Shown piece by piece: positions 18,338 through 31,607 of a stretch of 32,000 nucleotides of DNA. The position numbers were made by a program, and so were the translations under genes. Each line of letters starts with the position of its first letter. The first letter of the stretch is position 1. The notes under the pieces are model-generated. The model made no database searches. It had not been told where the DNA came from and saw only the letters and a list, made by a program, of their open reading frames with translations. This stretch comes from Desulfobulbus propionicus DSM 2032 (lineage in GTDB: Bacteria > Desulfobacterota > Desulfobulbia > Desulfobulbales > Desulfobulbaceae): positions 600,001 through 632,000 of the forward strand of contig NC_014972.1 in assembly GCF_000186885.1 (NCBI RefSeq), read 5' to 3'.

Positions 18338-19138
18338 TCAGGCCTTTTTCTTGGCCTTGGCACTGCTCGTCCCTTTCTTTTTCAGCCCTTCCAGCTCATT
18401 GTGCAGGGCCTCGATGGAGTCGGTCAACGGTTTGGGGTCAAACTCCCCCTTTTGCTCCAATTTTTCCAGGCGAGCGGGCACGTCGCCGAGGAACTTTTCC
18501 GGAGTGATGGCCTGCAACTGCTGAACAGTCGCGTTGAGTTTGCCTTCCAAGGTGGCCACATGGTCCTTGACCGTTCCGAGCATCTGGCCGGAAGCAGCGA
18601 TTTCAGTGGCAATGGACTCCAATTGGCCGGCGGCGGCAAATTCGCTGCTTTTTGCCTCCAGGGATTGCATCTTGGTGTTGAGAGCGGTGAACTGCTCGTT
18701 CAGGGTCTGCTGATTGTCGGCTACCTTTTTCACCTCAGCGGCAATAATGGTCTGCAACTCATCCTTGAGCACGATGGGGTCGGCGACCGGGGCGCAGGTT
18801 GCCTCCCTGCACTGGAAAGAGCCGATAAAGGAAAAAACAGGACGGAGGAGTTCACCAACGGAAACCTTGAGGGCCGCGTACATGGCCGAGGATGTTTCCT
18901 TGTTCACCAGCGAGACGGCAAAAAGGAAGATGCCAATGAGAAAAGCGATACACACGGTGAGGCCGATCACCATGGCTATGGACCATTGAACCAGACGAAA
19001 AGCACCGATGATGATCTGGCCAACGGAGTTGAGCACCCCTCCCTCGGGTGAAGCACTGGTCAGATAGGCCAGCAAGACAAAAACAAGAAGTACAACCGCC
19101 GATTTGACAAGCGGCGCACGCATCATATTCGTTTTCAT
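18338..19138 (-). CDS. Hypothetical membrane protein with a long C-terminal coiled coil and a Lys-rich tail
   Basis: ATG at 19138 preceded by a strong SD, GGGAGGAG. About 3 N-terminal TM helices (AVVLLVFVLLAYL, IIIGAFRLVQWSIAMVIGL, IAFLIGIFLFAVSLV). These are followed by about 150 aa of heptad-like, Q/E/L/A-rich sequence ending in KKKGTSSAKAKKKA. I recognise no family. Confidence 0.75.
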   Translation of the reverse strand: MKTNMMRAPLVKSAVVLLVFVLLAYLTSASPEGGVLNSVGQIIIGAFRLVQWSIAMVIGLTVCIAFLIGIFLFAVSLVNKETSSAMYAALKVSVGELLRPVFSFIGSFQCREATCAPVADPIVLKDELQTIIAAEVKKVADNQQTLNEQFTALNTKMQSLEAKSSEFAAAGQLESIATEIAASGQMLGTVKDHVATLEGKLNATVQQLQAITPEKFLGDVPARLEKLEQKGEFDPKPLTDSIEALHNELEGLKKKGTSSAKAKKKA

Positions 19139-19318: not shown

Positions 19319-21064
19319 TCATTCATAAATTGCTTGCGCCTGTTCCTTCTTCCCGTAGGGCGCCGCGGCAGGCTCGGCGAGCGTCCGCCGAATCTCGTCA
19401 AAATCCGAGGCCGTTTGGACGAGGGCCTCGACAATGGCCGGATCAAACCGTTGGCCCGCCATGCTGACGATGTGCTGCACCGCCTCCTGATGCGAAAGCC
19501 GCTGGGACGGATCAAGGGTTGCGGTGAGCTCCTCATAGGTGTCGGTCACGGCCATGATGCGGGCTTCCAGAGGGATGTCGCCGCCACGAAGTCCATGGGG
19601 ATACCCCTGGCCATCCCAACGTTCATGATGGAAGTAGGCGATATTTTTGGCCAGCGATAAAAATAGGCTACCCTTGGCCTCCTCTTCCATGGCTTTGATC
19701 AGGTCGCCGCCTTTGCGGGGATGCTGACGCAACACGGCTTCTTCCTCCGCCGTGAGCCTGGTGCTGTTCTTGAGAATCCTGTCGGGGATGGCCACCTTGC
19801 CGATGTCGTGCAGGATGGCGCCCTGATAGAGGCTGTGCATATAGGTCGGGGTGATGCTGCTGTCGTAGGGCGGATGACGCGCGAGTTCCGCGGCCAGGAT
19901 ACGGCAATATTCGCGAATTCGTTCAAGATGATTGCCCGGCGTCACATCCCGGTATTCCGAAAGGTTGGCCAAGGCGAGAATGGCCGCATTTTCCATCTGT
20001 TTGATTTTGTCGAGTGACACAAGCAGATTCTGTTCCAACTCCTTGCGGATGCCGATATCGCGGAGAACCAACTGCAGGCCAAGGTGATCGTCACCACGCA
20101 GCAACAGGGCGCCGCTGATTTCCATCTCTAGGGGGCCCCCTTGATAAGATTGCAGGGTGATGTGCCAAGCGGAAATCGGTTTGCCCTGAATAAGCGGGGC
20201 AAACAGTTCGCTTGCTACCCGGTGCCGGTCTTCGGGAAGAACCGCGTCATAAAAGGATGCGCCCTCCGGCGGTTTCCCTCCGTAAAAATGGCGCTGGTAG
20301 GAGCGGTTCGCCTGGAGCAGATCCCCTTGCTCGCTGACCAGAATCACGTCGTCGGCAATGGCTTGATAGAGAATCATGTAGCGCTGTTCCGTGGCCTGCT
20401 GTTCGGCGGTTCTTCGCTTGACTTCCCGTTCCAGATGGTCGGCTTGCCGTTGCAGCTGATCGGCGGCTTCGTGTTCTGCCCGCCGCAACCGGTATTCCCG
20501 GCTCCGGGCCGTGGTGTCGGCCCAGCTCTGGGTGGCGGCGATGAACACGAAGCAGGTCATGAAAAACAGGTTGCTGAACAAACTTAGCCACTGGTATTCG
20601 CTCAGCGACTCCAGCAAGGAGACGGAAACGAGATAGATGCAGATCAGGGCGAAACCGCTGATCAGGGTCTGGGCAACGGTGAGCGGCGCCAGAGCGGTGT
20701 AGATGGTCATGGCGACGATCAGGCCGACGTAATAGGAGGAGGTCACGCCGCCCAGGCGATGCACGGTGAGGAGGATGACGGTACCGGCACAGAGATAGCC
20801 GGCAAAACCAATGGCCCAGGCCAGGCGGTGGTGGCGGTCGAAAAAGTTGGCCACCAGCAGAAGACCGACAAAACCGACGGCACACAGCCGGTAACGGAGA
20901 AACTCGAAGAAATGCTCGGTGATCAGCAGATAATCGAGCAGGGTGAAAAGCAGCATGACGCCCATGCCCACCCCCAGAATCAAGTAGACCCGCTGGTGGT
21001 GCAGCTGTTGTGACTCCTGCTCAAACTGGTGATCAGCGTTGCGCATGCGAAGCCCTGCTTTCAC
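19319..21064 (-). CDS. Multi-TM / PAS / HD-GYP domain protein (c-di-GMP phosphodiesterase family), paralog 1
   Basis: About 6 N-terminal TM helices, a PAS-like segment, then HD-GYP motifs LHDIGKVAIPDRIL and HHERWDGQGYPHGL. The GTG start at 21064 overlaps the upstream stop (GTGA). An alternative ATG lies at 21046. Confidence 0.88.
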   Translation of the reverse strand: MKAGLRMRNADHQFEQESQQLHHQRVYLILGVGMGVMLLFTLLDYLLITEHFFEFLRYRLCAVGFVGLLLVANFFDRHHRLAWAIGFAGYLCAGTVILLTVHRLGGVTSSYYVGLIVAMTIYTALAPLTVAQTLISGFALICIYLVSVSLLESLSEYQWLSLFSNLFFMTCFVFIAATQSWADTTARSREYRLRRAEHEAADQLQRQADHLEREVKRRTAEQQATEQRYMILYQAIADDVILVSEQGDLLQANRSYQRHFYGGKPPEGASFYDAVLPEDRHRVASELFAPLIQGKPISAWHITLQSYQGGPLEMEISGALLLRGDDHLGLQLVLRDIGIRKELEQNLLVSLDKIKQMENAAILALANLSEYRDVTPGNHLERIREYCRILAAELARHPPYDSSITPTYMHSLYQGAILHDIGKVAIPDRILKNSTRLTAEEEAVLRQHPRKGGDLIKAMEEEAKGSLFLSLAKNIAYFHHERWDGQGYPHGLRGGDIPLEARIMAVTDTYEELTATLDPSQRLSHQEAVQHIVSMAGQRFDPAIVEALVQTASDFDEIRRTLAEPAAAPYGKKEQAQAIYE

Positions 21065-22782
21065 GATGTCCGTGCCCTGTCACGGGTCAGTCGGGTGCCG
21101 GCACTTTTGAACTCCTGTTCCCTCCTCAAGAAGGCCTCCACGATGACCGGATCGAAGCGCCGGCCGCTTTCCTCGGCAATCAGTCGGCGGGCCTGCTCAT
21201 GGGGATAGGCGGGTTTGTAGGGCCTGGTCGAGGTCAGGGCATCATAGACATCGGCCAGGGCGATGATGCGGGCCGAAAGCGGTATGGCTTCTCCGGCCAG
21301 GCCGTATGGATAGCCCCTTCCATCCCAGCGTTCATGATGATAGCGGGTGATTTCCTGGCCAAGGCGGAGAAAGGAGAGACTTTCCGAGCCTTTCTCCGCC
21401 GATGCCAGGGCGTTGCTGCCGTAGGTGCAATGCCGTTGCATGGTCTCGTATTCCTCGGCGGTCAATCGGCCCGGTTTCAGCAGGATGGCATCGGAAATTC
21501 CTATTTTGCCGATGTCGTGGAGCAGGGAGGAGAGGCAGAGATCGTCGATGAAATGTTCGGTGATGACCGACTGCAGTTCCGGGACGGTGGCGAGCTCGAC
21601 CGCCAGAATTCGGGTGTAGGCACGGATGCGGAGCAGGTGGGCACCGGTGGTGTCGTCCCGGCATTCGGCCAGGCGCGCCAATCCGAAGATGGCCGCCTGC
21701 CGCGAGGTGTCGAGCAGCTGCTTGGATTCCAGGACCCGTGTTTCCATCTCCTTGGTCAGGCTGATGTCGCGGATAATCAATTGACAGCATTCTCCATGTT
21801 CTGGAAGATGGACCGTGTTGCCACTCAGTTCGACTTCGAGGGGGCGGCCCCGATAGGTCAGCATCTGCATCTGCACCCCCTTGATCCGTTCGCCCCGGCG
21901 TATGCGGGTGAGCACGTCGCCATGGAACAGCTCCCGCTCGTGCGGGGGGAGGAAATCGGAAAAGGGCCTGTTTTCCAGCAGCTGCGACGAGCATTCAAGC
22001 AGGTCGGCGCCATGCGGGTTGATCATGCGGATCATGCCGTGCATGTCGATCAGGACCACCAGATCGAGGAGGTTGTTGTAGAGGTCGCGGAATTTGAGAT
22101 CCGATTCTTCCAACAGGGCCAGCCGCTCCCGCACCAGCGATTCGAGATTGCCGGTATAGCGCTTGAGTTCGCGGCTGATGGTTTGCAAACTCTTTTGTGC
22201 CCGCAGCGAGCGCAGTTGGGTGTGGAATTCGTCAAAACACTGCACCGTGGTGACGATGACAAGGGTAAAGAAAAAAAAGCTGTTGTTGATCACATACATC
22301 AGTTCCGGCCGGTCAAGCGGCCGGTCATTGACGTAGACGGTGAGCGCATACACCAGATACATGGACGCGCCGAGCCGCAGGGCCTGGGCGACCGTCAGCG
22401 GCAGCACGGAAAAGGCCCCGGCAATCATCAACAGGATGCCGACGTAATAGCCCGAGGCGAAGCCTCCCAACTTGACGGTCATCAGGGAAATGACCAGGGT
22501 GCCGAGCAGCATGACGGCGAACATGATGGCCGGGGTGTGGCGTCTGATGGGGGGCAGATGGAGGATGGCCAGCAGGCCGAGCATGATCAGCACATAGCTG
22601 AGGCGATAGAACAAAAAGAGCGGAAAAAAAGAGCGGGCATGGACGTAATCGAGCAGGGCAAAGAGGGAGAAGAACACCACCCCCAACCACAGGCAGATAC
22701 GGGTGCGCTGATAGAAGAGTTCCTCCATCTCCTCATGCACCGGTACGGCTTGGGTACCGGTTGTCGAGGGTTTTTTGCGCAT
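21061..22782 (-). CDS. Multi-TM / PAS / HD-GYP domain protein (c-di-GMP phosphodiesterase family), paralog 2
   Basis: Same architecture as paralog 1. Motifs: LHDIGKIGISDAILLKPGRLT, HHERWDGRGYPYGL, ADVYDALTSTRPYKPA. The ATG at 22782 shares one nucleotide with the upstream TGA (TGATG) and follows AAGGAG. The tracked ORF begins one codon earlier, at the GTG at 22785. Confidence 0.88.
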   Translation of the reverse strand: MRKKPSTTGTQAVPVHEEMEELFYQRTRICLWLGVVFFSLFALLDYVHARSFFPLFLFYRLSYVLIMLGLLAILHLPPIRRHTPAIMFAVMLLGTLVISLMTVKLGGFASGYYVGILLMIAGAFSVLPLTVAQALRLGASMYLVYALTVYVNDRPLDRPELMYVINNSFFFFTLVIVTTVQCFDEFHTQLRSLRAQKSLQTISRELKRYTGNLESLVRERLALLEESDLKFRDLYNNLLDLVVLIDMHGMIRMINPHGADLLECSSQLLENRPFSDFLPPHERELFHGDVLTRIRRGERIKGVQMQMLTYRGRPLEVELSGNTVHLPEHGECCQLIIRDISLTKEMETRVLESKQLLDTSRQAAIFGLARLAECRDDTTGAHLLRIRAYTRILAVELATVPELQSVITEHFIDDLCLSSLLHDIGKIGISDAILLKPGRLTAEEYETMQRHCTYGSNALASAEKGSESLSFLRLGQEITRYHHERWDGRGYPYGLAGEAIPLSARIIALADVYDALTSTRPYKPAYPHEQARRLIAEESGRRFDPVIVEAFLRREQEFKSAGTRLTRDRARTS

Positions 22783-24296
22783 CACTCCTTGGTCGCCATG
22801 GCAAAGAGGTTGACGCCGGCCTGTTCCACCAGGATTTCCACCCGATCGCCAAAGGGGGTCGATGCGAACAGCGCGCGCAGATCGTCACTGGTGCGGTAGA
22901 TCAGCTCCCATTTGAGCAGCTTGTCGAGGAACAGGCAGTCGGGATAGAAGGTGAAGTTGCCGAGCAGCAGGGTGCCGCCTGGCTTGAGATGGCGGTGGCA
23001 CTGGTTGATCAGGGCGCGGAACAGGCGTGGGTCGAGATAATCGCACAGTCCGGCCGAATAGATGATGTCCAGCGGCTCGATGTGGTGCTTGGCCCGGCCC
23101 AGGGCCCATTTGATCACGTTTTCGCTCATCAGCCGGATGGAGGCGCGGTGAGGGAAAATGTTGACATGCTGGTTGGTGTACTGCAACGCCTCGGAGTCGA
23201 TGTCGACGCACAGGGCCTCGATGGTCTCGCTGTACTCGCACTCGGCGAGGAAATCAAACAGCTCCCGGTTGGGTCCGCAGGCCAGGTTCATGATTCGGGT
23301 GATGCCGCCCCGCGCGGCAATGGCGCCGCTGAGGCGCATCAGCTGTTCCTTGAGCAGGATGCGCCGACCGCGGATGGCCAGCGAGCCGGGCCGCTGGAGG
23401 CAGAAGTCGTCGATGATTTCGCCGAGCTTGCCATCCCCCTTGGGAATGTTGGCATAGATGTGCTCCATCATGAGGAAATCGCCGGCATAGCCCTTGGGCT
23501 TGAAGTAGGCGCGTTCGGCAAAGCGGCTGCGCATCAGATAGGGGAAGATCTCCTTGAACACATACCCCCACATTACCTCGTCATAGCCGCTGCCGGTCAT
23601 GGTCTGCTCGAATTCGGCCAGCGAGCCATTGAGCTCGCCCATGACCGCGATGCAGCGGGCCTCGCTGTCCGGGTCGCGTTTCCCCTCGGCCTCGGTCTTT
23701 TGCAACCGGTGGGAAAGATTGAACAGCTCGGATTTGAATCCCTCCATCCGGCTGCTGATCGTGTGCCATCGGGAGGAGTGGGTCAGCGGCGGGGGCAACG
23801 GCTTGGCCTCGGTGTAGCGGCTGGCGTGGCGGGTGGAGAGCGATTCGGCATACCCGGCGATCGGCTCCCGTTCCCCGGCGATCCGGCGGAATTTGCCGCA
23901 GATTTTCTGGGTGAGGAAGACGATGAAATCGGTGAACAGCCCGGGATTGCCGGCCCGCAGGCTGTCCATGACCGCGCCGTCGAAGATGGCGACCCGGGCC
24001 TCGCCCACCGCCTGGATGTCACGAACCCGCGATTCGCCGTCGAAATAGCCGATTTCGCCGAAAAATTCCCCGGAACCGATCAGGGCCACGGTGATGCGGG
24101 TATCGGATCGGTCGGTATAGCTGACCTCCACCGAGCCGCTGGCCAGGTAATAAAAGGCGTTGGTCGTCGTGCCCGGCGACAGGATCGGCTCGCCAGCGGC
24201 AAAGTCGCGCACCGTGGCAAAAGCGAGCACGGCATCGAGCAAGGGAGGGGTTTGGACGTCCGGTGCGGCGGTCGAGGTGTGGGCAAGGTGTGTCAT
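22782..24296 (-). CDS. Fusion protein: N-terminal cyclic-nucleotide-binding (cNMP/CAP-type) domain plus C-terminal class I SAM-dependent methyltransferase (PhcB-like?)
   Basis: The cNMP beta-barrel reads FAAGEPILSPGTTTNAFYYLASGSVEV...GSGEFFGEIGYFDGESRVRDIQAV. The C-terminal half has SAM motif I ITRIMNLACGPNRELFDFL, then LDIIYSAGLCDYL and LKPGGTLLLGNF. ATG at 24296 with a GAGGA SD at 8-nt spacing. Confidence 0.85.
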   Translation of the reverse strand: MTHLAHTSTAAPDVQTPPLLDAVLAFATVRDFAAGEPILSPGTTTNAFYYLASGSVEVSYTDRSDTRITVALIGSGEFFGEIGYFDGESRVRDIQAVGEARVAIFDGAVMDSLRAGNPGLFTDFIVFLTQKICGKFRRIAGEREPIAGYAESLSTRHASRYTEAKPLPPPLTHSSRWHTISSRMEGFKSELFNLSHRLQKTEAEGKRDPDSEARCIAVMGELNGSLAEFEQTMTGSGYDEVMWGYVFKEIFPYLMRSRFAERAYFKPKGYAGDFLMMEHIYANIPKGDGKLGEIIDDFCLQRPGSLAIRGRRILLKEQLMRLSGAIAARGGITRIMNLACGPNRELFDFLAECEYSETIEALCVDIDSEALQYTNQHVNIFPHRASIRLMSENVIKWALGRAKHHIEPLDIIYSAGLCDYLDPRLFRALINQCHRHLKPGGTLLLGNFTFYPDCLFLDKLLKWELIYRTSDDLRALFASTPFGDRVEILVEQAGVNLFAMATKE

Positions 24297-24366
24297 GACA
24301 AGGTCCTCGCAAGAGGTGGGGATGGCCGCCGGCTAAACGGGCGGAGGGAATGCTGGGCAGAATGGC

Positions 24367-25659
24367 TCAAAACGAGGCGATCACGCCGACGGTCACTGCA
24401 TGGGCTCCGCCGTCGGTGAAGGTGCCGTCAATGCCGGAGGCGTTCGTGACCGATCGGGTGCGGGTACGATGGTACATGTACGACATCCCCAGTTCCATGG
24501 CCGGCGAATAGCGGTAGCGCAGACCGGCGCAATAGACCGTCGCGTCGGTGTCCGGCAATTCAAAGCCCAAGGTTTCGCTGGGCACGGGCGTTTCATCGTA
24601 GGCAAAGCCCAGGGTGGTGGTCCAGCGGTCATTCCATGTATAGGTCAGACCGAGCCGATAGGCGTCGGTGTCCTGCCAATTCTTGGCCACGGCACGATCA
24701 AAGACGTCGAAAGCGGTTCCGAGAAAATCCTGTCCGTACTGAAAATCCAGCTGCGCAAACGACGACCAAAAGGTCCGGTCCCATCCCAGTTCCACGGTCA
24801 ACCGCTCAAAGGTGTAGGCTGTGGCCAGGCTGAACACGGCCGGCAGGGTGACGCCGATGGCCGAGGAGCCGGAATAGGGGGAAAGCGATGTTGCCTCCAG
24901 CAGGGCCCTGAGCTGGCCGTCACCCGAGAGGTTGAGATCGACCTCCGATCTGTAGGTGGCGGCAATGGTCCATTGTTCGACCGGCCGGAGGGAGAGGGCG
25001 AGATTGTAGCCCAGTTGGGTGTCGCTGCCGTCGGACGAGCGGCTGAGGGTGGTCAGGGGGGCGATTTGCGCCAGCGGCGGATTGAGCAACTCGCTTTCCA
25101 CCTCGCCTTTGCCGTAGATGACGCTCAGACCGCCACCAATGCTCAGCCACGGACGCACCTGGTAGGCGACCGTCGGGTTGGCCTCGACGATCAAGAGGGA
25201 AAATTCCTCGGCGCTGGCCTGGGGAAAGGGCTGATTCCAGCGCTTGGACAGGCCATAGGGATAGGTGAGCGAAAACCCGAAGCGCAGATCGTTGTATTGC
25301 GGCGACGCGGCATGGATCAGCGGCATGAAGAACAGCTCGTCCTCCGACGACCCGTTGAATGTCGAGCTGCGGTGGTCCGAGTAGGTGATCGACGGCAGGT
25401 GCAGGGCGGTCAAGCTGGTTTCCGCTTGCCATTGATCGGCCAGCCACGCCATGTTGGCCGGATTGTAGTAGCTGGAATCCGGTCCGGGCGTATGGGCGAT
25501 GTGGGCACCCGCCAACCCCACGGCGCCGAGGGATTGGTTGGTGATGCGAAAACCCGAGGCTTCGGCCGTCCCTTGCAGGGCGGCCAGCGTCAGCACCAGG
25601 CCGTGGGCAACGGCCCCGGGCCAAAGCCGACGCGGCAAGGACTTCCCGTGTGGTGTCAT
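24367..25659 (-). CDS. FadL/OMPP1/TodX-family outer-membrane channel for hydrophobic compounds
   Basis: Signal peptide ending LQGTAEA. Family N-terminal hatch motif SGFRITNQSLGAVGLAGAHIAHTPGPDSSYYNPANMAWL. Alternating beta-strand pattern with a terminal F. GGGAGA SD before the ATG at 25659. Confidence 0.88.
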   Translation of the reverse strand: MTPHGKSLPRRLWPGAVAHGLVLTLAALQGTAEASGFRITNQSLGAVGLAGAHIAHTPGPDSSYYNPANMAWLADQWQAETSLTALHLPSITYSDHRSSTFNGSSEDELFFMPLIHAASPQYNDLRFGFSLTYPYGLSKRWNQPFPQASAEEFSLLIVEANPTVAYQVRPWLSIGGGLSVIYGKGEVESELLNPPLAQIAPLTTLSRSSDGSDTQLGYNLALSLRPVEQWTIAATYRSEVDLNLSGDGQLRALLEATSLSPYSGSSAIGVTLPAVFSLATAYTFERLTVELGWDRTFWSSFAQLDFQYGQDFLGTAFDVFDRAVAKNWQDTDAYRLGLTYTWNDRWTTTLGFAYDETPVPSETLGFELPDTDATVYCAGLRYRYSPAMELGMSYMYHRTRTRSVTNASGIDGTFTDGGAHAVTVGVIASF

Positions 25660-25727
25660 GGCGGATCTCCCGAGAAAACCGGTTGTTCTTCCGGATCAGT
25701 CTCCGACTCAAGGTTAATAGCAATTGA

Positions 25728-25736
25728 ATTATAGCA
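25728..25736 (-). promoter_or_regulatory. Candidate extended -10 promoter (TGCTATAAT) for the FadL-like / methyltransferase / HD-GYP cluster
   Basis: The minus strand reads TGCTATAAT, a perfect TATAAT with a TGn extension, in a short AT-rich island about 70 nt upstream of the ATG at 25659. There is no good -35 element. An 8-bp inverted repeat abuts it upstream. Confidence 0.45.
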
Positions 25737-26025
25737 TTGATTTGAAAAAGTAAAATCAATTTAACCCGGATCGTGCCTCCAGGGGTGCTTCTGCGGCGTC
25801 TGGATAAGGCCGACGGGGCGAAGGCCCGCTTGTTGATCGGGCGGGGTGTCGCCAGTCAAGCTCATCATGGATGTTGTTGGCGAAAAAATTTTGTGCGGCA
25901 GGCCGTTTATGGCACACTGCGTTCATGAGCGTTTGTGCACGGGGTCCGTTGGTGGGCGATGACACGAAAAGAGCCTTTTCGGGGCCAGCGAGGCGAATCA
26001 GAACGGGATTGGTGAAAAAAACAAT

Positions 26026-29000
26026 ATGAGATCAATATGTTATTCTCCTATTTGGATTGCGCTGTCATTGCTGCCGGCGGTACAAGCGGCCGCGGCGCTT
26101 CCTGCGGCCTTCGATCTGCGCGACATCGACGGCCACAGCTTTATCGGCGGAGTGCGCGATCAAGGGAATTGCGGCAGTTGCTATGCCTTTGGCGCCGTGG
26201 CGGCGGCGGAGAGCACCTGGAACCGTGCCCATGGCTTGTATGACGAACAGGCCATCGATCTCTCCGAGGCATTCATGGTCTGGAGTCTCGGGCCTCTATA
26301 CGAGGGGATGGATGGGTGCAATGGCGGCAACATCCTTGACCCCATGAACGCCGTGGTTGAATACGGTGTGCCGGTGGAAAAGGTTTTTCCCTATCCCCTG
26401 CAGGATGACCAATGGACGGTCATCGAACCTGCCATCGGCCAGCATTGGGATGCTCCACGCCACCTCCTGCTCGATTGGTATCCTATTCCCCCCAACGACA
26501 TCGAGACCGTCAAACGGGTTTTGCACTCCATTGGCGCCATCCGCGCATCCGTTCTGGTCGAGGATGATTTCCAAAGGTATTCCAGTGGAATTTTTTCCAA
26601 CGACTACACGGCCATTGATTATATTATCCCCTATTATTCCAGTTCCAATCATGCGGTCAGCTTGGTGGGCTGGAACGATGCCCCCGGTCCGGAGGGCATG
26701 GGAAGCTGGATCTTGCGCAACAGCTGGAATGATTATTGGGGCGAGGATGGCTACATGCGCATCAGCTACATGTCCGCGGGCGTCAATCTGAAAAATTCCT
26801 ACCTGATCGCCGTCCCCTGGAGCGGTGAGAGCGTCGAGCTGGAAAACGACGGCCGATTGACGGCCCGTCCTTGGAGCGCCGGTGGCACGCTCAATGCCTA
26901 TGGTGTTGATCTGTGGGGCGGCGCCGCCAGCTCGGTGACCAATCGCGGCACCATCCTGGCCGAGGCGGACGGGGGGGAGGCGCTGACCACGGCCAGGGGC
27001 GTGTACCTCTGGGGCGGTCCGGAGGGATGGGTGACCAACAGCGGCGAGATTGCCGCCGTTGCCGCCAGCGCGACCAATCAGGCTATTGCCCATGGCATCA
27101 CGCTCCAAGGCGGTCTGGTGGACAATGCCGGCCGGATCAGCGCCGAGGCCGGCAGTGAAGCGAAACAGGCCCTGGCCTTTGGCGTGTGGGCCGCCAACGG
27201 CGGCAATCCTTTGACCGTGCGCAACAGCGGCACCATCACCGCCTCCACCAATGACGGTGTCCTGAACAGCGCCTACGGCATCTGGGGCGACAGCCGCGCG
27301 GGAATAACGGTCAGCAACAGCGGCATCATCGAGGCTTTTGGCCAGGAATGGGCGGTGGGCGCCTTGCTCTCCAATGGCCCCGTCCTGCTCGACAACAGTG
27401 GCACCGTCGCCGCGTCAGCCGATCCCGATACTGGAGTCGCGGTCGGCATCCTGACGACCAACCCGGGAACGATCGTCAACAGCGGCACGGTTCGCGGCCA
27501 AACCTTTTCCATCAATGCCTGGGACGATACGCAGCTGGTGCTGCGGACCGGCTCCGATCTCATCGGATCGGTGCTGTTGGAAGGACGCGCCGACCAGGTC
27601 CGACTTGCCGGGAGCGGCAGGGAAGATGAACGTTTTGCCGGAGTCGAAACCCTGATCATGGCGGGGTGGGACTGGACGCTCGCCGGTGATTCCACGTTCG
27701 GTTCCATCCGGGTCGTGGGTGGCCGGCTGGGCATCGACGGCGTGGTGCACGGGAACACCACGGTTCATGCCGGCGGCACCCTGGCAGGCAGCGGAACCGT
27801 GGTTGGTGAGGTGGTCAGTTCTGGCAGGGTGGCCCCCGGTCGCTCGATTGGACATCTGACCATCGACGGCGATTTTCGTCAAAACGCCAACGGCCTCCTG
27901 GCCATCGAAATCGGACGGGATAGCGCCGATCTGCTCACTGTCACCGGCACCGCCTCCCTGGACGGAACCCTGCGGGTCCTTCCCGACGGGTATGCTGCCG
28001 GCGGCTATTATACGTTCCTCGATGCCGGTGCCCTCGACGGCTCTTTCACCCTGGCACAAGGTGCGGCGGTTCTCGATGTCGACCTGGTGCCGCTCGGCTC
28101 CGACGGCTTGGCCCTGGAGGTCAGCCGCAACCGCTACGCCGATCTGTCGACGCCTGGCAACCACGGCATCGCCGCCAATCTGGACATGGTGCGCTCCACG
28201 GCGGCAGACGATTTCGCCGATGTCCTCGATCGCCTTGATCTGGCCATGACGAGCGACGATATGAACGCCTCGCTTGCTCAAATGACCCCGCGCATCCATG
28301 GGCTGGCCACCGTCCTTGCCCTGGATGACGGCCAGGCCGGCTTGGACAGTGTGCGCCGCCGCATGGAGCGGTTCGCCCCGACGGAGGACAGGGCGCGGGA
28401 CAACGGCCGCTCGACCACCGTCTGGATGGAGGCCCCTGGTCGCCATGGTCGGTACGACGCCGACGGGAACTCTTTCGGCGCCAGGAGCCATTCATTCGGC
28501 ATGTTGCTTGGCCTGGAGCGCACGACGGTCCATGGTCTGACCGTCGGCATGACGGGAGGGATCACGAAAAGCCGCTACCAATCGGACAGCGGCGGCGACG
28601 AAGGGGAAAACGCGAGCCTGCAGGGGTACCTGTACGGCTTTTGGCGCGATCCCCAGACCATGGACGGTTGGCGTTGGGGTGGGGCGATCGGCACCGGCGT
28701 GATCGATCTTGAAGGCGACCGCCATCTCTCCTTTGCCGGCCGACAGAGCCACAGCGACCATGACGCGCACTTGTTGGCGGGCACCCTTCTGGGCGGATAC
28801 GACTGGAGGTTCGGCAACTGGATCCTTGGTCCGACCCTGGGGCTCAACTGGGTTGCGCTCGACGAGGAGGGCTTTGCGGAATCCGGGGCCGGCAGTGCCG
28901 ATCTGATCATGCGGTCCCGGGAGAGCGATTCCCTGCAAGGAGTGGTCGGCGGGCGGATCGCCCATCCGTTCTCCTGGCAGGAACTGGTGCTTGAACCTGA

Positions 29001-29250
29001 AGTGCGGCTACAGTGGGTGCATGAATTCAGCCGCCAAACCGACGATCTGGAATCGCGGCTGGCTGGCGGGGGCGACTTCTTCGTGACCCCCGGCCGTGAT
29101 TTGGCCGCTAACGGCCTCATCATGGGAGCCGCGCTGCGGACGCGGTTCTCGGAAACGATGTTCACCCATCTCGGTTATGCGTGCACCCTGCGCGACCAAG
29201 GCGGCGAGACTGATCATGCCCTGTCCCTGCAATTGGGTTGGAGGTTTTAA
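26026..29250 (+). CDS. Type Va autotransporter with an N-terminal papain-like (peptidase C1) cysteine protease passenger
   Basis: Signal peptide ...LLPAVQA. C1 catalytic set: Q46, then GSC(52)YAF, then NHAVSLVGW, then RNSWNDYWGEDGYMRISY. Next come about 7 beta-helix-type repeats carrying N-S/R/A-G-x-I. The classic pre-barrel motif is GGTLAGSGTVVGEVVSSGRVAPGRSIGHLTIDGDFRQNANGLLAIEI. The C-terminal approximately 280-aa beta-barrel ends in LSLQLGWRF. Confidence 0.9.
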   Translation: MRSICYSPIWIALSLLPAVQAAAALPAAFDLRDIDGHSFIGGVRDQGNCGSCYAFGAVAAAESTWNRAHGLYDEQAIDLSEAFMVWSLGPLYEGMDGCNGGNILDPMNAVVEYGVPVEKVFPYPLQDDQWTVIEPAIGQHWDAPRHLLLDWYPIPPNDIETVKRVLHSIGAIRASVLVEDDFQRYSSGIFSNDYTAIDYIIPYYSSSNHAVSLVGWNDAPGPEGMGSWILRNSWNDYWGEDGYMRISYMSAGVNLKNSYLIAVPWSGESVELENDGRLTARPWSAGGTLNAYGVDLWGGAASSVTNRGTILAEADGGEALTTARGVYLWGGPEGWVTNSGEIAAVAASATNQAIAHGITLQGGLVDNAGRISAEAGSEAKQALAFGVWAANGGNPLTVRNSGTITASTNDGVLNSAYGIWGDSRAGITVSNSGIIEAFGQEWAVGALLSNGPVLLDNSGTVAASADPDTGVAVGILTTNPGTIVNSGTVRGQTFSINAWDDTQLVLRTGSDLIGSVLLEGRADQVRLAGSGREDERFAGVETLIMAGWDWTLAGDSTFGSIRVVGGRLGIDGVVHGNTTVHAGGTLAGSGTVVGEVVSSGRVAPGRSIGHLTIDGDFRQNANGLLAIEIGRDSADLLTVTGTASLDGTLRVLPDGYAAGGYYTFLDAGALDGSFTLAQGAAVLDVDLVPLGSDGLALEVSRNRYADLSTPGNHGIAANLDMVRSTAADDFADVLDRLDLAMTSDDMNASLAQMTPRIHGLATVLALDDGQAGLDSVRRRMERFAPTEDRARDNGRSTTVWMEAPGRHGRYDADGNSFGARSHSFGMLLGLERTTVHGLTVGMTGGITKSRYQSDSGGDEGENASLQGYLYGFWRDPQTMDGWRWGGAIGTGVIDLEGDRHLSFAGRQSHSDHDAHLLAGTLLGGYDWRFGNWILGPTLGLNWVALDEEGFAESGAGSADLIMRSRESDSLQGVVGGRIAHPFSWQELVLEPEVRLQWVHEFSRQTDDLESRLAGGGDFFVTPGRDLAANGLIMGAALRTRFSETMFTHLGYACTLRDQGGETDHALSLQLGWRF

Positions 29251-29458
29251 CATCGGTGGGAGGCTGGGGCGGCAGGCAAGACCGGCGGCCAAGCGACGCG
29301 CTTTCGGGGGCCACCACCGGACACAGAACCGCGTCCGAGCGCATGGGGCAAAGAGCGCAACGGCTGATTTTGCTTGACGCGGCTGCGCGAAAGCCGTCAT
29401 GATGGGCTGTTTTCCGACCACCAACGCCTTCTGGCAAAGCACGAACGGTTCGTCTCCC

Positions 29459-29893
29459 ATGTATCCTGTACGATTGATCGTTATCCTTCTATTCCTGGTA
29501 TCGTCCCCCCCGGTCTCCGCGCGCGCCGCAGGCGACGAGGAAGGGGCCACCCTGTACGGCCGAACCCTGCTTGAGCAGATCAACAATTACCGCCATGTCA
29601 ATGGGTTGAGCACGTTGCGGTTTGATCCCCGTCTGATCCGCCTGGCCCGCACCCATAGCTTCGAGATGTTTCAGCAGAAACGGGTCAGCCATCGCAATTT
29701 CAACGAGCGGTTTGAACGCGCGGGCAGCAACCTGTGCGTGGAGAATGTCGGCTGGAATTACAGCACGCCGCTCAAGCAGTTCGATGCCTGGCGCCATTCG
29801 AGCGGCCATGACGAGAACATGCTTAAAGAAGGTCTTTCCAGGGCCGGCATCGCCGAGGTTGGCAAATACGTGACTTTTTTTGCTTGCAAATAA
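29459..29893 (+). CDS. Secreted CAP/SCP (PR-1-like, YkwD-type) domain protein
   Basis: LLEQINNYRHVNGLSTLRFDPRLIRLARTHSFEM, ENVGWNY, AWRHSSGHDENML and AGIAEVGKYVTFFA follow the bacterial CAP-domain pattern. I chose the ATG at 29459 because MYPVRLIVILLFLVSSPPVSARA is then a normal signal peptide. The tracked start at 29399 would bury it. A possible promoter, TTGACG (29374..29379), 18-nt spacer, CATGAT (29398..29403), also favours the later start. Confidence 0.8.
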   Translation: MYPVRLIVILLFLVSSPPVSARAAGDEEGATLYGRTLLEQINNYRHVNGLSTLRFDPRLIRLARTHSFEMFQQKRVSHRNFNERFERAGSNLCVENVGWNYSTPLKQFDAWRHSSGHDENMLKEGLSRAGIAEVGKYVTFFACK

Positions 29894-30019: not shown

Positions 30020-30215
30020 GAGCCGTATGCGGTCAATCTTTCGGAGGAAACGGGTGCGATTCCCGTGCTGTCCCGCAACTGTGATTCCGCCGTCGGCGGA
30101 CAAGCCAGATACTCCTCGTGAACGCGGGTCTTCGTGGAATGAGACACCGGCGCCGTGCCTGCGGCATTCCGACTGCTCCCCGACGCATCACGCTGACTGT
30201 TCAACCCTGTCGCGG
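30020..30215 (+). promoter_or_regulatory. Cobalamin (B12) riboswitch
   Basis: GGAGGAAACGGGTGCGATTCCCGTGCTGTCCCGCAACTGTGA (30043..30084) matches the conserved cobalamin-riboswitch core pattern (GGGAA..GGTG.GAATCC....CCCGC.ACTGT). AAGCCAGATACTCC (30102..30115) is a B12-box-like segment whose CTCC can pair with the upstream GGAG. It sits directly 5' of cobU-cobS-cobC. The outer boundaries are approximate. Confidence 0.8.
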
Positions 30216-30255
30216 CCATCAGACGATCGGCCGGCAACTTTTCTGTGGTGGCTGT

Positions 30256-30834
30256 ATGGGGCGGATTATCCTGGTGACTGGTGGGGCCAGAAGCGGCAAG
30301 AGCAGCTTTGCCGAACAGCTGACCGGAGGGATGGGCGCGGAAATCGCCTATATTGCCACGGCCATGGCCCTCGATGCCGAAATGGAGGACCGGATCGCCA
30401 AGCACCGGCGGCAGCGCCCCGATTGCTGGCAGACCTTTGAAGCCCCGACCCACCCCGCCGGGGTGATCGGCGAGCGCGGCAACCACGTTGACGCCATTCT
30501 GCTGGATTGTCTGACGGTGATGGCCACCAACCGGATGCTCGATCAGCCCCCTTCCGTTGACTGGGAACACCCCACCGTGGCGCAGATGAACGCCATCGAG
30601 GCGAACGTGCTGGCCGAGGTCGAGGCGATCATTGCCGCCGCGACCGGTGTCCGGGCCGATCTGGTGGCGGTGACCAACGAGGTCGGTTTCGGCATCGTGC
30701 CGCTGTCACCGTTGTCCCGCTTCTTCCGTGACTGCGTCGGCCGGGTCAATCAGCGGATGGCGCGCGCCGCTGCGGAGGTCTACCTGGTGGTTTCGGGGAT
30801 CCCCGTGCGGATCAAGGGGGAGGGGGCGGCATGA
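30256..30834 (+). CDS. cobU: Bifunctional adenosylcobinamide kinase / adenosylcobinamide-phosphate guanylyltransferase
   Basis: MGRIILVTGGARSGKSSFAE (P-loop), IATA...DAEMEDRIAKHRRQRP, and VTNEVGFGIVP. I trimmed the tracked ORF (30118..) to the ATG at 30256 because the extra 46 codons lie over the riboswitch and leader. Confidence 0.9.
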   Translation: MGRIILVTGGARSGKSSFAEQLTGGMGAEIAYIATAMALDAEMEDRIAKHRRQRPDCWQTFEAPTHPAGVIGERGNHVDAILLDCLTVMATNRMLDQPPSVDWEHPTVAQMNAIEANVLAEVEAIIAAATGVRADLVAVTNEVGFGIVPLSPLSRFFRDCVGRVNQRMARAAAEVYLVVSGIPVRIKGEGAA

Positions 30835-31607
30835 AATCGCTCGTGCTCATGATTCAGTTCATGACCCGCTATCCGATTCCGCTGGAGATCGAGTTCACTG
30901 CCCGCCACTTTGTCCAGGGCATGAAGTGGATGCCGCTGGTCGGCCTGCTCGCGGCCTTGCCGGGAGCTGTCGGGTTTGTCCTGGCCGATGCCTGGCTCGG
31001 CCGGGAGGTGGCGGCCATTGTCGCCGTCATCCTGCTGATCACCGTCACCGGCGGCCTGCACCTCGACGGGATCGCCGACACCGCCGACGGCCTGTTCAGC
31101 TATCGGTCCCGCGAGCGGATGCTGGAAATCATGCGCGATTCCACCCTGGGGGCCAATGGGGTGATCGCCCTGGTGCTGACGATTCTGCTCAAGTTCATCC
31201 TGCTGCACAACATTGCGGATGACGGCGCGCTGCTGGCGGTGCTGCTCACCCCGGTACTTGGGCGCATGGCCCTGACCTGGCATTCGGCGGTGGCTCCTTA
31301 TGCCCGGGAGGAGCGGGGCATCGGCGATTACGTCAACCAGACCGGGCTTGCCCAGGCCGTGGCCGCCACCCTGCTGTCCCTGTGCCTGGTGAGCGTCCTG
31401 CTGGGGATGTTCGGCCTGCGGCCGGCATTGATCCCCGTGGTCACCGTGGTCCTGCATCTGCCGTCGATCGTGCTGGCGGTGCTGTTCGCCGCCTATCTCA
31501 GGCGGAGGCTGGGCGGGATCACCGGCGATACCATCGGGGCCAGCATCGAGCTGGCGGAGCTCCTCAGTTTTCTCGTCTTTCTTCTTGTGTGGAAATATAT
31601 GCTATGA
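30831..31607 (+). CDS. cobS: Adenosylcobinamide-GDP ribazoletransferase (cobalamin synthase)
   Basis: A polytopic membrane protein with FMTRYPIP, TGGLHLDGIADTADGLFS and GGITGDTIGA, which are CobS signatures. Its start overlaps the cobU stop (ATGA). Confidence 0.92.
   Translation: MKSLVLMIQFMTRYPIPLEIEFTARHFVQGMKWMPLVGLLAALPGAVGFVLADAWLGREVAAIVAVILLITVTGGLHLDGIADTADGLFSYRSRERMLEIMRDSTLGANGVIALVLTILLKFILLHNIADDGALLAVLLTPVLGRMALTWHSAVAPYAREERGIGDYVNQTGLAQAVAATLLSLCLVSVLLGMFGLRPALIPVVTVVLHLPSIVLAVLFAAYLRRRLGGITGDTIGASIELAELLSFLVFLLVWKYML

What the first reader, a model, noticed from the sequence alone, without database searches (positions are those of the whole stretch)
19319..25760. FadL-like porin + cNMP-gated methyltransferase + two membrane HD-GYP proteins: candidate lipid-ester signal / c-di-GMP module
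What the sequence shows:
- Four co-directional genes sit behind one extended -10 promoter. In order they are the FadL-family channel, the cNMP-binding/SAM-methyltransferase fusion, HD-GYP paralog 2 and HD-GYP paralog 1.
- The last three are coupled by overlapping stop and start codons (TGATG at 22782, GTGA at 21061..21064).

Established background:
- FadL-family channels move hydrophobic molecules across the outer membrane.
- PhcB of Ralstonia is a SAM methyltransferase that makes volatile 3-OH fatty-acid methyl ester quorum signals.
- In Xanthomonas the fatty-acid signal DSF is read out through the HD-GYP protein RpfG.

Inference: this cluster combines those themes in an arrangement I do not recognise as described.
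- A second-messenger-gated methyltransferase could make or modify a hydrophobic ester.
- The porin would let that compound cross the outer membrane.
- The two multi-TM PAS HD-GYP proteins could sense it in the membrane and lower c-di-GMP.

No histidine kinase or response regulator is present, so the proposed output would be direct.
Basis: partly seen in the sequence, partly recalled or inferred. Interest (0 to 1): 0.75.

Follow-up and report, generated by a model that had tools for sequence, protein, structure and literature searches.

The report
Phc-like lipid-signal module with c-di-GMP output
A Desulfobulbus-type sulfate reducer carries an operon homologous to the synthase and membrane receptor of the Ralstonia "Phc" fatty-acid-methyl-ester quorum-sensing system, but the receptor is fused directly to a c-di-GMP-degrading enzyme, the synthase has a cyclic-nucleotide-binding domain, and a dedicated outer-membrane lipid channel is attached.

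Summary
Four co-directional minus-strand genes lie at 25659..19319: a FadL channel, a cNMP-binding/methyltransferase fusion and two TM-PAS-HD-GYP paralogs. They have overlapping stop/start codons and a conserved extended -10 box.

- The methyltransferase's catalytic half is homologous to PhcB of the Burkholderiales phcBSRQ operon (30% identity, E 2e-30; profile-profile 99.9%).
- The six-TM N-termini of both HD-GYP proteins are homologous to the MASE8 sensor domain of the PhcS kinase (profile-profile 99.4%, E 1.5e-21; shuffled controls E 0.15-0.5).
- In 77 of 80 genomes that encode the methyltransferase, a sensor of this type lies within 2.5 kb. The other three are contig ends.
- The sensor output is HD-GYP in about 68 loci and a hybrid histidine kinase in 9.
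- Some lineages carry tandem synthase-sensor pairs that fall into matching clades.
- FadL is a frequent, dedicated accessory (34 loci) but is not part of the core.

Best reading: a cNMP-gated PhcB-type enzyme makes a hydrophobic methyl ester, which PhcS-type receptors sense in the membrane and convert directly into c-di-GMP hydrolysis. The product, the ligand and the enzyme activities are all untested. I found no description in the searchable literature. I file it as a new variant of a known kind.

The parts
25728..25736 (-). Extended -10 promoter box TGCTATAAT, about 62-70 nt upstream of the fadL ATG. It has no canonical -35.
   Evidence: Sequence read. AATGCTATA[AC]T is conserved upstream of fadL in L001, L002, L004, L013, L017, L019, L020, L021, L028 and L049. 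It lies directly upstream of the methyltransferase gene in the fadL-less loci L022, L023, L024 and L027. The generic sigma-70 scan did not find it.
24367..25659 (-). FadL/TodX-family outer-membrane channel (430 aa). It has a signal peptide (..GTAEA/SGF), an N-terminal hatch motif and NPA.
   Evidence: Pfam Toluene_X E 1.3e-53; NCBIfam FadL is below cutoff; sequence read. Orthologs of 49-73% identity lie directly upstream of the methyltransferase in 34 loci. In a scan seeded with FadL, paralogs of 48% identity or less are not next to a methyltransferase (0 of 59), whereas the single 65% ortholog is.
22782..24296 (-). cNMP-binding / PhcB-type SAM-dependent methyltransferase fusion (504 aa), the proposed signal synthase.
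   Evidence: Pfam; family alignment A1; AF2 model with pLDDT 76.8; homologs named after PhcB function.
23958..24209 (-). Cyclic-nucleotide-binding beta-barrel (aa 30-113).
   Evidence: Pfam cNMP_binding E 1.4e-16. The PDB profile search gives CAP at E 1.8e-10. The CAP Glu72/Arg82 equivalents (E80, R89) are invariant in the family, and Ser83 is replaced by Val.
22803..23552 (-). PhcB-homologous catalytic region (aa 249-498). It includes the KPxGYAGD lid motif and the SAM-binding Rossmann fold.
   Evidence: BLASTP against Paraburkholderia PhcB: 30% identity, E 2e-30. hhalign family against family: 99.9%, E 1.7e-32. The best PDB fold is 3ocj both for this model and for a Cupriavidus PhcB model.
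21061..22785 (-). HD-GYP paralog 2 (573/574 aa): MASE8-like six-TM sensor, PAS, HD-GYP. Its start overlaps the methyltransferase stop.
   Evidence: Pfam. TM domain against PhcS: BLASTP E 2e-6; hhalign 99.4%, E 1.5e-21 with null controls. Motifs ECRDDTTGAH, LHDIGK and HHERWDGRGYP. This is the clade that always directly follows the methyltransferase.
19319..21064 (-). HD-GYP paralog 1 (581 aa), with the same architecture. Its GTG start overlaps the stop of paralog 2 (GTGA).
   Evidence: Pfam. Pfam MASE8 matches at full length but below threshold, E 0.0098. Motifs EYRDVTPGNH, LHDIGK and HHERWDGQGYP. It belongs to the clade that follows a second methyltransferase copy in tandem-pair lineages.
18338..19138 (-). 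Possible accessory gene: 266-aa protein with N-terminal TM segments, a coiled coil and a Lys-rich tail, 180 nt downstream of HD-GYP1 on the same strand. Membership of the module is uncertain.
   Evidence: It follows HD-GYP1 in all Desulfobulbus-like loci, and at 35-36% identity in L044 and L046. It has no significant Pfam hit. No terminator-like site separates it from HD-GYP1 on the minus strand.

Best explanation
This is a Phc-type lipid-signalling operon, with a synthase and cognate membrane receptors, rewired for a direct second-messenger output.

Proposed mechanism:
1. The 504-aa enzyme uses its PhcB-type catalytic domain to O-methylate a fatty-acyl carboxylate with SAM. By analogy the substrate is a 3-hydroxy fatty acid, and the product is a hydrophobic, diffusible methyl ester.
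2. Its N-terminal cNMP-binding domain makes synthesis depend on an intracellular cyclic nucleotide.
3. The ester partitions into membranes. The dedicated FadL-family channel helps it cross the LPS barrier of the outer membrane, inward and/or outward.
4. In the inner membrane the ester is sensed by the six-TM, loop-poor, PhcS-type (MASE8-like) domains of the two paralogous receptors.
5. These relay through a PAS domain to catalytically competent HD-GYP domains and change c-di-GMP hydrolysis. No phosphorelay is involved.
6. The two receptor paralogs descend from an ancient duplication of synthase-receptor pairs. This lineage kept one synthase and both receptors.

Shown here: the homologies, the conserved pairing, the operon structure and the intact catalytic motifs.

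Inferred: the product chemistry, ligand recognition, the sign of the regulation, the nucleotide bound, and cell-to-cell (quorum) use.
For: 1. PhcB homology.
- Window methyltransferase aa 249-498 against the methyltransferase of a Paraburkholderia methyltransferase-HK-RR-RR operon: 30% identity, E 2e-30.
- That protein is 68% identical to Cupriavidus proteins that sit in MT / MASE8-HK / REC-HK / REC operons, i.e. phcBSRQ. Literature says Cupriavidus has a complete Phc system (PMC2842291).
- Profile-profile comparison: 99.9%, E 1.7e-32.
- JGI and NCBI names on homologs refer to PhcB.
- Both models have the same top PDB fold, 3ocj, followed by PKS and small-molecule methyltransferases.

2. PhcS-type sensor.
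- BLASTP E 2e-6.
- Full-length but sub-threshold Pfam MASE8 hits for HD-GYP1, a Syntrophobacterales HK and PhcS.
- hhalign of 127 HD-GYP N-termini against PhcS N-termini: 99.4%, E 1.5e-21 over 205 columns. Reversed and column-shuffled controls give E 0.15-0.5.
- An HMM of the HD-GYP N-termini hits four PhcS proteins at E 1e-25 to 1e-29.
- The six TM segments are at matching positions.

3. Obligate pairing.
- 77 of 80 methyltransferase loci have such a sensor within 2.5 kb. The remaining three are contig ends.
- The output domain swaps between HD-GYP and hybrid HK.
- Tandem MT-sensor-MT-sensor loci exist. Their first and second methyltransferases and their first and second sensors form matching clades.

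4. Operon structure.
- Overlapping codons.
- Tight spacing in most relatives.
- A conserved extended -10 box that stays at the 5' end whether or not fadL is present.

5. Lipid theme.
- A dedicated FadL subfamily in this lineage, and an independent FadL-like gene in Desulfocapsa loci.
- A Myxococcales cyclase-cNMP-methyltransferase fusion next to a fatty-acyl-AMP-ligase/ACP gene.
- The same methyltransferase domain ends an Enterobacter type I PKS.
- FadL is known to modulate perception of long-chain AHLs (PMC9938287).

6. c-di-GMP theme.
- HD-GYP motifs are conserved in 54/56 and 62/69 orthologs.
- A PilZ-sigma54 activator or a HAMP-GGDEF gene follows the pair in other lineages.
Against: - No product, ligand or enzymatic activity has been measured for any member of this family.
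- The PhcB N-terminal region is not homologous to the cNMP domain, so the regulation differs.
- Catalytic-domain identity to PhcB is only about 30%. The wider family (2,692 clusters at E<1e-10) includes PKS-embedded and stand-alone enzymes, whose substrates may differ.
- MASE8 scores are below Pfam's gathering threshold.
- FadL is missing from about a third of close relatives and from all distant ones, so it cannot be essential.
- Conserved adjacency also fits an enzyme-substrate or shared-regulon relationship.
- The NJ trees have no support values.
Confidence: 0.55

Rival explanations
1. Membrane-lipid or fatty-acid homeostasis module, not a communication system. FadL imports exogenous hydrophobic acids. 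The methyltransferase esterifies or detoxifies them, or modifies an endogenous lipid. The MASE8-like HD-GYP proteins monitor the resulting membrane state and adjust c-di-GMP.
For: The same homologies and gene linkage fit this reading. FadL is classically an uptake channel (Pfam and NCBIfam). The sensors have almost no periplasmic loops, which fits intramembrane sensing. Some relatives of the methyltransferase sit in biosynthetic (PKS, FAAL-ACP) rather than signalling contexts.
Against: The only characterised homologous pair, PhcB/PhcS, is a signal synthase and its receptor (PMC8578825, PMC11960443). Duplicated, co-diverging synthase-sensor pairs are typical of orthogonal signal channels and hard to explain for bulk lipid homeostasis. 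FadL is dispensable in many lineages.
Confidence: 0.22
2. The methyltransferase is a protein methyltransferase that covalently modifies its neighbouring sensor (CheR-like adaptation), with the cNMP domain gating adaptation.
For: Strict 1:1 adjacency and paired duplication would also suit an enzyme-substrate pair. One JGI label and weak Pfam hits mention CheR.
Against: CheR similarity is marginal: E 1e-3 in PhcB, and 1 of 87 relatives. The family is homologous to PhcB, and its closest folds are small-molecule and PKS methyltransferases. There is no CheB-like demethylase in the locus. Relatives occur without any sensor nearby, in Plesiocystis and Myxococcales.
Confidence: 0.07
3. Functionally unrelated genes held together only by inherited synteny in Desulfobulbaceae.
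For: Flanking genes (orf266, HAD, Mfd, CobU/S) are also syntenic within Desulfobulbus. Synteny alone is therefore weak evidence at short evolutionary range.
Against: The methyltransferase-sensor adjacency persists after all flanking synteny is lost. It spans several orders, survives output-domain swaps and tandem duplication, and recurs in Burkholderiales as phcB-phcS. The genes also have overlapping codons.
Confidence: 0.03

Closest known systems
Phc quorum-sensing system of Ralstonia/Cupriavidus (phcBSRQ + PhcA)
   Same: The catalytic domain of the synthase is homologous (PhcB type). The six-TM MASE8-type membrane sensor domain is homologous (PhcS type). The synthase gene lies immediately upstream of the sensor gene in one operon.
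   Different: - The sensor output is PAS-HD-GYP (c-di-GMP hydrolysis) instead of HisKA/HATPase.
- There is no PhcR, PhcQ or PhcA.
- The synthase N-terminus is a cNMP-binding domain instead of the PhcB-specific beta-rich domain.
- There are two receptor paralogs per synthase.
- A FadL channel is encoded in the operon.
- The host is an anaerobic Desulfobulbales bacterium rather than a Burkholderiales one.
DSF signalling of Xanthomonas (RpfF / RpfC / RpfG)
   Same: A fatty-acid-derived diffusible signal is ultimately read out by an HD-GYP c-di-GMP phosphodiesterase.
   Different: - The synthase there is a crotonase (RpfF), not a methyltransferase.
- Sensing there goes through a hybrid kinase (RpfC) and phosphotransfer to REC-HD-GYP (RpfG).
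- Here the sensor and HD-GYP are one polypeptide with no REC domain, and none of the components is homologous apart from HD-GYP itself.
CqsA/CqsS and LqsA/LqsS alpha-hydroxyketone systems
   Same: A lipid-like autoinducer synthase is encoded next to a six-TM intramembrane-sensing receptor.
   Different: The synthase family there is PLP-dependent acyl-CoA transferases, and the receptors are histidine kinases. No homology was tested or claimed here.
FadL-assisted perception of long-chain AHLs in Sinorhizobium
   Same: A FadL-family outer-membrane channel modulates passage of a hydrophobic quorum signal (PMC9938287).
   Different: There fadL is not part of the synthase/receptor operon, and the signal is an AHL.
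Bd1971 of Bdellovibrio (cNMP-binding domain fused to an EAL phosphodiesterase)
   Same: A CAP-type cNMP domain directly gates an enzyme of a second signalling pathway. It is a top PDB sequence hit for the N-terminal domain.
   Different: There the gated enzyme is the c-di-GMP phosphodiesterase itself. Here it is the putative signal synthase upstream of the phosphodiesterases.

Membership tests
Phc quorum-sensing system (PhcB/PhcS/PhcR/PhcQ) | PhcB-type SAM-dependent methyltransferase catalytic domain | tested here: met
   30% identity, E 2e-30 to Paraburkholderia PhcB over 250 aa. hhalign 99.9%, E 1.7e-32. Both share the KPxGYAGD lid motif and the same best PDB fold, 3ocj.
Phc quorum-sensing system (PhcB/PhcS/PhcR/PhcQ) | PhcB-specific N-terminal region (about 200 aa; site of the R22C regulatory mutation) | tested here: not met
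   No alignment outside the catalytic domain (second hhalign hit E 0.83). The window protein has cNMP_binding there instead. The PhcB N-terminus has no Pfam match.
Phc quorum-sensing system (PhcB/PhcS/PhcR/PhcQ) | PhcS-type MASE8 six-TM sensor domain encoded next to the synthase | tested here: met
   hhalign 99.4%, E 1.5e-21 with null controls. The HMM hits PhcS at 1e-25 to 1e-29. Matching TM positions. Caveat: the Pfam MASE8 score (16.5 bits) is below the 26.2-bit cutoff.
Phc quorum-sensing system (PhcB/PhcS/PhcR/PhcQ) | Histidine-kinase transmitter on the sensor (HisKA/HATPase, His230) | tested here: not met
   The window sensors end in PAS-HD_5 with no HisKA or HATPase. Hybrid-HK versions do exist in Desulfocapsa, Electrothrix and Syntrophobacterales relatives.
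Phc quorum-sensing system (PhcB/PhcS/PhcR/PhcQ) | PhcR (REC-HK) and PhcQ (REC) genes in the operon; PhcA LysR regulator | tested here: not met
   No REC-containing or LysR gene in the cluster or the 32-kb window. The rest of the genome was not available.
Phc quorum-sensing system (PhcB/PhcS/PhcR/PhcQ) | Signal is (R)-3-OH palmitate or myristate methyl ester | not testable with these tools
   Requires GC-MS of culture or heterologous-expression extracts.
HD-GYP c-di-GMP phosphodiesterases | HD_5/HD domain with HD, HHExxDGxGYP and the metal-site Glu | tested here: met
   Pfam HD_5 E 4e-29 and 4e-34. LHDIGK, HHERWDG[RQ]GYP and E-x8-H are present in both paralogs and in most orthologs. The motif definition follows the bioRxiv paper 10.1101/2021.11.05.467447.
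HD-GYP c-di-GMP phosphodiesterases | Hydrolysis of c-di-GMP | not testable with these tools
   Needs an enzyme assay.
FadL/TodX/OmpP1 outer-membrane channels | Toluene_X profile match above threshold, signal peptide, N-terminal hatch with NPA motif | tested here: met
   Pfam 182 bits against a cutoff of 29.7. Signal peptide ..AEA/SGF, the GF hatch start and YYNPANM were read from the sequence. The E. coli FadL equivalog model scores far below its cutoff (76 against 585 bits). It is therefore a family member, not a FadL ortholog.
CAP/CRP-type cyclic-nucleotide-binding domains | cNMP_binding fold with the phosphate-binding-cassette Glu and Arg | tested here: met
   Pfam E 1.4e-16. CAP alignment E 1.8e-10, with E80 and R89 invariant in 17 homologs; Ser83 is replaced by Val. 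The model shows the beta-barrel. The identity of the ligand cannot be tested here.
DSF/Rpf system | RpfF crotonase synthase; RpfC hybrid kinase; REC-HD-GYP RpfG | tested here: not met
   No ECH/crotonase, HK or REC domain in the cluster. This is an analogy only.

The most novel reading that the evidence does not exclude
cNMP-gated PhcB-type methyltransferases and their cognate MASE8-like receptors form a previously unrecognised, widespread family of lipid-methyl-ester quorum-sensing systems in anaerobic Desulfobacterota, including relatives of cable bacteria.
- The autoinducer would be read directly as c-di-GMP hydrolysis by one-component membrane phosphodiesterases.
- Ancient duplications would have generated orthogonal synthase-receptor channels.
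- The synthase's cNMP domain would close a second-messenger feedback loop on signal production. By analogy with Xanthomonas Clp, the ligand it senses might even be c-di-GMP.
Probability: 0.35. Interest if true: 0.8.

Novelty: new variant of a known kind. Interest (0 to 1): 0.68.

Why it matters
- Phc signalling is known only from Ralstonia and its Burkholderiales relatives, where it controls virulence through a multi-step phosphorelay that is still not fully resolved.
- Homologous synthase-receptor pairs in sulfate-reducing Desulfobulbales, with the receptor fused straight to an HD-GYP domain, would extend fatty-acid-methyl-ester signalling to strict anaerobes.
- It would offer a much simpler system for studying how the MASE8/PhcS domain recognises its ligand, because the readout is c-di-GMP hydrolysis.
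- It would give a concrete candidate for the long-sought cell-cell signalling chemistry of sulfate reducers and biofilm- or filament-forming Desulfobulbaceae.
- It assigns a testable role to a large uncharacterised architecture, cNMP-binding plus methyltransferase: 80 of the 87 top long relatives carry it.
- It also assigns a role to a dedicated FadL subfamily.
- Several cultured strains carry the locus, so the predictions can be tested directly.

Tried and rejected
- A word-indexed homolog search with the TM domain alone returned only seven fragments and was uninformative.
- I tested whether the PhcB N-terminus is a cryptic cNMP or PilZ domain. There is no sequence signal. The AF2 model shows a small beta-rich domain of moderate confidence, and Foldseek hits were dominated by the methyltransferase domain. 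This is left open.
- A Rhizobium plasmid methyltransferase homolog sits next to a GGDEF-EAL membrane protein, but that protein's TM region is not MASE8-like (HMM E 0.007). It is not counted as a further example.
- The generic sigma-70 scan did not detect the promoter, and its terminator hits are inside genes. I relied on phylogenetic footprinting instead.
- The FadL-seeded metagenome scan returned mostly paralogs of 36-48% identity. It is useful as a negative control, but it gives only one extra ortholog.
- CheR-type protein methylation and a DSF/Rpf identity were considered and rejected on homology grounds (see rival explanations and membership tests).
- The long plus-strand ORFs antisense to the cluster were rejected as GC-rich artefacts with no Pfam hits.

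Full report
**Observation.**
- 25659..24367 is a FadL/Toluene_X outer-membrane channel (E 1.3e-53).
- 24296..22782 is a fusion of a cNMP-binding domain (E 1.4e-16) and a class I SAM methyltransferase, with a partial match to Methyltransf_20.
- 22785..21061 and 21064..19319 are two paralogs of about 33% identity. Each has a hydrophobic N-terminus, a PAS domain and an HD_5/HD domain.
- The long plus-strand ORFs that overlap them have no Pfam match, so the minus strand is coding.
- The overlaps TGATG (22784..22780) and GTGA (21064..21061) are present.
- The extended -10 box TGCTATAAT is at 25736..25728. Its supposed -35 is 20 nt away and the generic scan missed the site.
- The box AATGCTATA[AC]T is conserved upstream of fadL in ten related genomes. 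In four genomes that lack fadL it sits directly upstream of the methyltransferase gene. This is good comparative evidence for one promoter serving the whole cluster.
- Flanking genes are unrelated to signalling: a C1-peptidase autotransporter lies divergently upstream, and a TM/coiled-coil ORF, a HAD hydrolase and Mfd lie downstream.

**The methyltransferase is PhcB-like.**
- Homologs of 63-100% identity are abundant in Desulfobulbus, Desulfogranum, Desulforhopalus, Desulfopila and Desulfosediminicola. Several carry the JGI name 'extracellular factor (EF) 3-hydroxypalmitic acid methyl ester biosynthesis protein'.
- A tblastn search of plasmids with the catalytic half found a Paraburkholderia graminis gene. 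It heads an operon of methyltransferase, histidine kinase and two response regulators.
- That methyltransferase is 64-92% identical to proteins of Cupriavidus, Massilia, Janthinobacterium and other Burkholderiales.
- The loci of those proteins read methyltransferase / MASE8-HisKA-HATPase / REC-HisKA-HATPase / REC, which is the phcBSRQ operon.
- Published work states that Cupriavidus has a complete Phc system, 56-75% identical to that of R. solanacearum (PMC2842291). It also identifies PhcB (RSc2735) as the methyltransferase that makes 3-OH MAME/PAME, sensed by the kinase PhcS (PMC6989110, PMC8578825, PMC11960443).
- The window protein aligns to the Paraburkholderia PhcB over residues 249-498 (30% identity, E 2e-30). 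Family-against-family hhalign gives 99.9% probability, E 1.7e-32.
- The N-terminal halves are unrelated.
- An AlphaFold model (pLDDT 76.8) shows a cNMP beta-barrel, a helical linker and lid, and a Rossmann domain.
- The model's best PDB match is 3ocj, followed by SgvM, CurJ, AprA and PsoF, which are small-molecule and PKS methyltransferases, plus CAP/GlxR for the N-terminus. A model of Cupriavidus PhcB has the same best match.
- The cNMP domain keeps the CAP Glu72/Arg82 equivalents, invariant as E80 and R89.

**The HD-GYP membrane domain is PhcS-like.**
- HD-GYP2 residues 61-229 align to the N-terminus of the Paraburkholderia PhcS (26% identity, E 2e-6).
- Pfam MASE8, the domain precomputed on Cupriavidus, Massilia and Janthinobacterium PhcS, matches HD-GYP1 end to end but below threshold (E 0.0098). 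It also matches a Syntrophobacterales kinase (E 0.012) and the Paraburkholderia PhcS (E 0.001) in the same way.
- An alignment of 127 HD-GYP N-termini from the fetched loci, compared with four PhcS N-termini, gives 99.4% probability and E 1.5e-21 over 205 columns.
- Reversing or column-shuffling the PhcS alignment abolishes the signal (E 0.15-0.5). Hydrophobic composition is therefore not the explanation.
- An HMM of the HD-GYP N-termini hits the four PhcS proteins at E 1e-25 to 1e-29.
- Both families have six TM segments at nearly identical positions with minimal loops. They also share polar or aromatic positions: LDY after TM1, Sx(Y/F)YxG, and a Gln in TM4/5.
- Both window paralogs have complete HD-GYP catalytic motifs, including the Glu associated with a trinuclear site (motif definition from bioRxiv 10.1101/2021.11.05.467447).

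**Conservation of the arrangement.**
- A scan of species-representative genomes returned 80 loci.
- tblastn shows methyltransferase followed by HD-GYP2-type then HD-GYP1-type in about 50 loci of 63% methyltransferase identity or more. Spacing is mostly overlapping or under 10 nt.
- More distant Desulfobulbales have either a single methyltransferase-HD-GYP pair or tandem MT-HD-GYP-MT-HD-GYP.
- Where no HD-GYP follows, the neighbour is a hybrid histidine kinase with a homologous N-terminal domain. This is the case in Desulfocapsa, an Electrothrix genome, a Desulfobacterales MAG and Syntrophobacterales (Pfam; hhalign 99.7%).
- Overall, 77 of 80 loci have such a sensor within 2.5 kb of the methyltransferase. 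The other three end within 101-1342 nt.
- NJ trees have no support values but are consistent. Sensors split into an HD-GYP2-type clade, which always follows the first methyltransferase, and an HD-GYP1-type clade, which follows the second methyltransferase in tandem loci. All eight second-position methyltransferases cluster together.
- This is the pattern expected for duplicated cognate synthase-receptor pairs. The window lineage has one synthase and both receptor types.

**FadL.**
- An ortholog of 49-73% identity lies directly upstream of the methyltransferase in 34 loci. It is absent from about 16 close loci and from all distant ones.
- Desulfocapsa loci carry a different, divergent FadL-like gene after the methyltransferase or the kinase.
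- A metagenome scan seeded with the window FadL found one 65% ortholog, which is next to a methyltransferase. It also found 59 paralogs of 48% identity or less with enough flanking sequence, and none of these is next to one.
- FadL is therefore a dedicated but dispensable accessory.
- There is a precedent for FadL modulating perception of long-chain hydrophobic autoinducers (PMC9938287).

**Wider family.**
- The catalytic domain has 2,692 cluster representatives at E<1e-10.
- Among the 87 top relatives of 430 aa or longer, 80 carry a cNMP-binding domain, and two add an adenylate/guanylate cyclase domain.
- Members occur in Myxococcales, Planctomycetota and Plesiocystis, where one is annotated 'phcB, RSc2735'.
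- The Myxococcales cyclase-cNMP-methyltransferase gene is followed by an AMP-binding/PP-binding (fatty-acyl-AMP ligase-ACP) gene.
- An Enterobacter plasmid type I PKS ends in this methyltransferase domain.
- Both contexts point to acyl substrates.
- In Desulfurivibrio-like loci the methyltransferase-HD-GYP pair is followed by a PilZ-PAS-sigma54 activator. In another locus it is followed by a HAMP-GGDEF gene. This reinforces a c-di-GMP output.

**Interpretation.**
- Best-supported model: a cNMP-gated PhcB-type enzyme makes a hydrophobic methyl ester. The ester is sensed within the inner membrane by PhcS-type domains fused to HD-GYP phosphodiesterases, and FadL eases its passage across the outer membrane.
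- Shown: the homologies, the obligate linkage, the operon organisation and the intact motifs.
- Inferred: the product, the ligand, the sign of the response, the nucleotide bound, and population-level signalling.
- Rivals: lipid-homeostasis sensing, which I cannot exclude; CheR-like methylation of the sensor, which is unlikely on homology; and mere synteny, which is very unlikely.

**Novelty.**
- Full-text searches found no paper that combines PhcB with Desulfobulb*, or PhcB with cyclic nucleotide-binding. The only two papers holding both PhcB and HD-GYP are Ralstonia/phytopathogen quorum-sensing studies.
- Among signalling papers, MASE8 is mentioned only in passing in the HD-GYP census preprint.
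- I therefore file this as a new variant of the Phc-type system, not a member of it. It lacks the kinase transmitter, PhcR/PhcQ and the PhcB N-terminal region.

Noticed in passing
window 30044-30114 (+): Cobalamin riboswitch aptamer (Rfam RF00174, 42.4 bits, E 1.2e-7) immediately upstream of cobU (30118..30834) and cobS (30831..31607).
   Followed up: no
window 26026-29250 (+): 1074-aa autotransporter with a papain-family (Peptidase_C1) passenger domain. It is divergently transcribed from the fadL promoter region and followed by a small CAP/SCP-family protein at 29399..29893.
   Followed up: no
window 763-3954 (-): 1063-aa ORF with no Pfam match. The alternative plus-strand ORFs inside it also have none. 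It could be a novel large protein or a non-coding stretch.
   Followed up: partly
window 18338-19138 (-): 266-aa TM + coiled-coil + Lys-rich protein directly downstream of HD-GYP1. It is conserved in that position in Desulfobulbus, and at 35-36% identity in L044 and L046 (Desulfogranum japonicum). A 31% copy lies nearby on the opposite strand in Electrothrix (L061). It is a possible fifth gene of the module.
   Followed up: partly
window 4108-7053 (-): Another c-di-GMP protein 12 kb away: dCache-PAS-GGDEF-EAL, 981 aa.
   Followed up: no
L052 11178-13430 (+); L063 12045-13421 (+): In Desulfurivibrio-like genomes the methyltransferase-HD-GYP pair is followed by a PilZ-PAS-PAS-sigma54-activator-HTH protein, a candidate c-di-GMP-responsive transcriptional output. 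In L063 it is followed by a HAMP-GGDEF protein and then a second HD-GYP sensor.
   Followed up: partly
L089 6001-11098 (+): Myxococcales 979-aa fusion of adenylate/guanylate cyclase, cNMP-binding domain and PhcB-like methyltransferase. It is followed by an AMP-binding + PP-binding (FAAL-ACP-like) gene. This would be a self-contained nucleotide-gated acyl-methylation unit.
   Followed up: partly
L087 3625-6762 (+): A type I polyketide synthase on an Enterobacter ludwigii IncFII plasmid ends in a PhcB-like methyltransferase domain (29% identity to the window enzyme, E 5e-24).
   Followed up: no
P0171 / model macd237f008d8, residues 10-85: The uncharacterised N-terminus of genuine PhcB is predicted to be a small six-stranded beta-rich domain (pLDDT about 60-70) with no Pfam match. 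It contains the R22 position whose mutation alters Phc signalling in the literature (PMC6989110).
   Followed up: partly
window 21010-25734 (+): Three long ORFs (629, 552 and 444 aa) run antisense to the cluster and have no Pfam hits. They are probably artefacts of about 60% GC content.
   Followed up: yes
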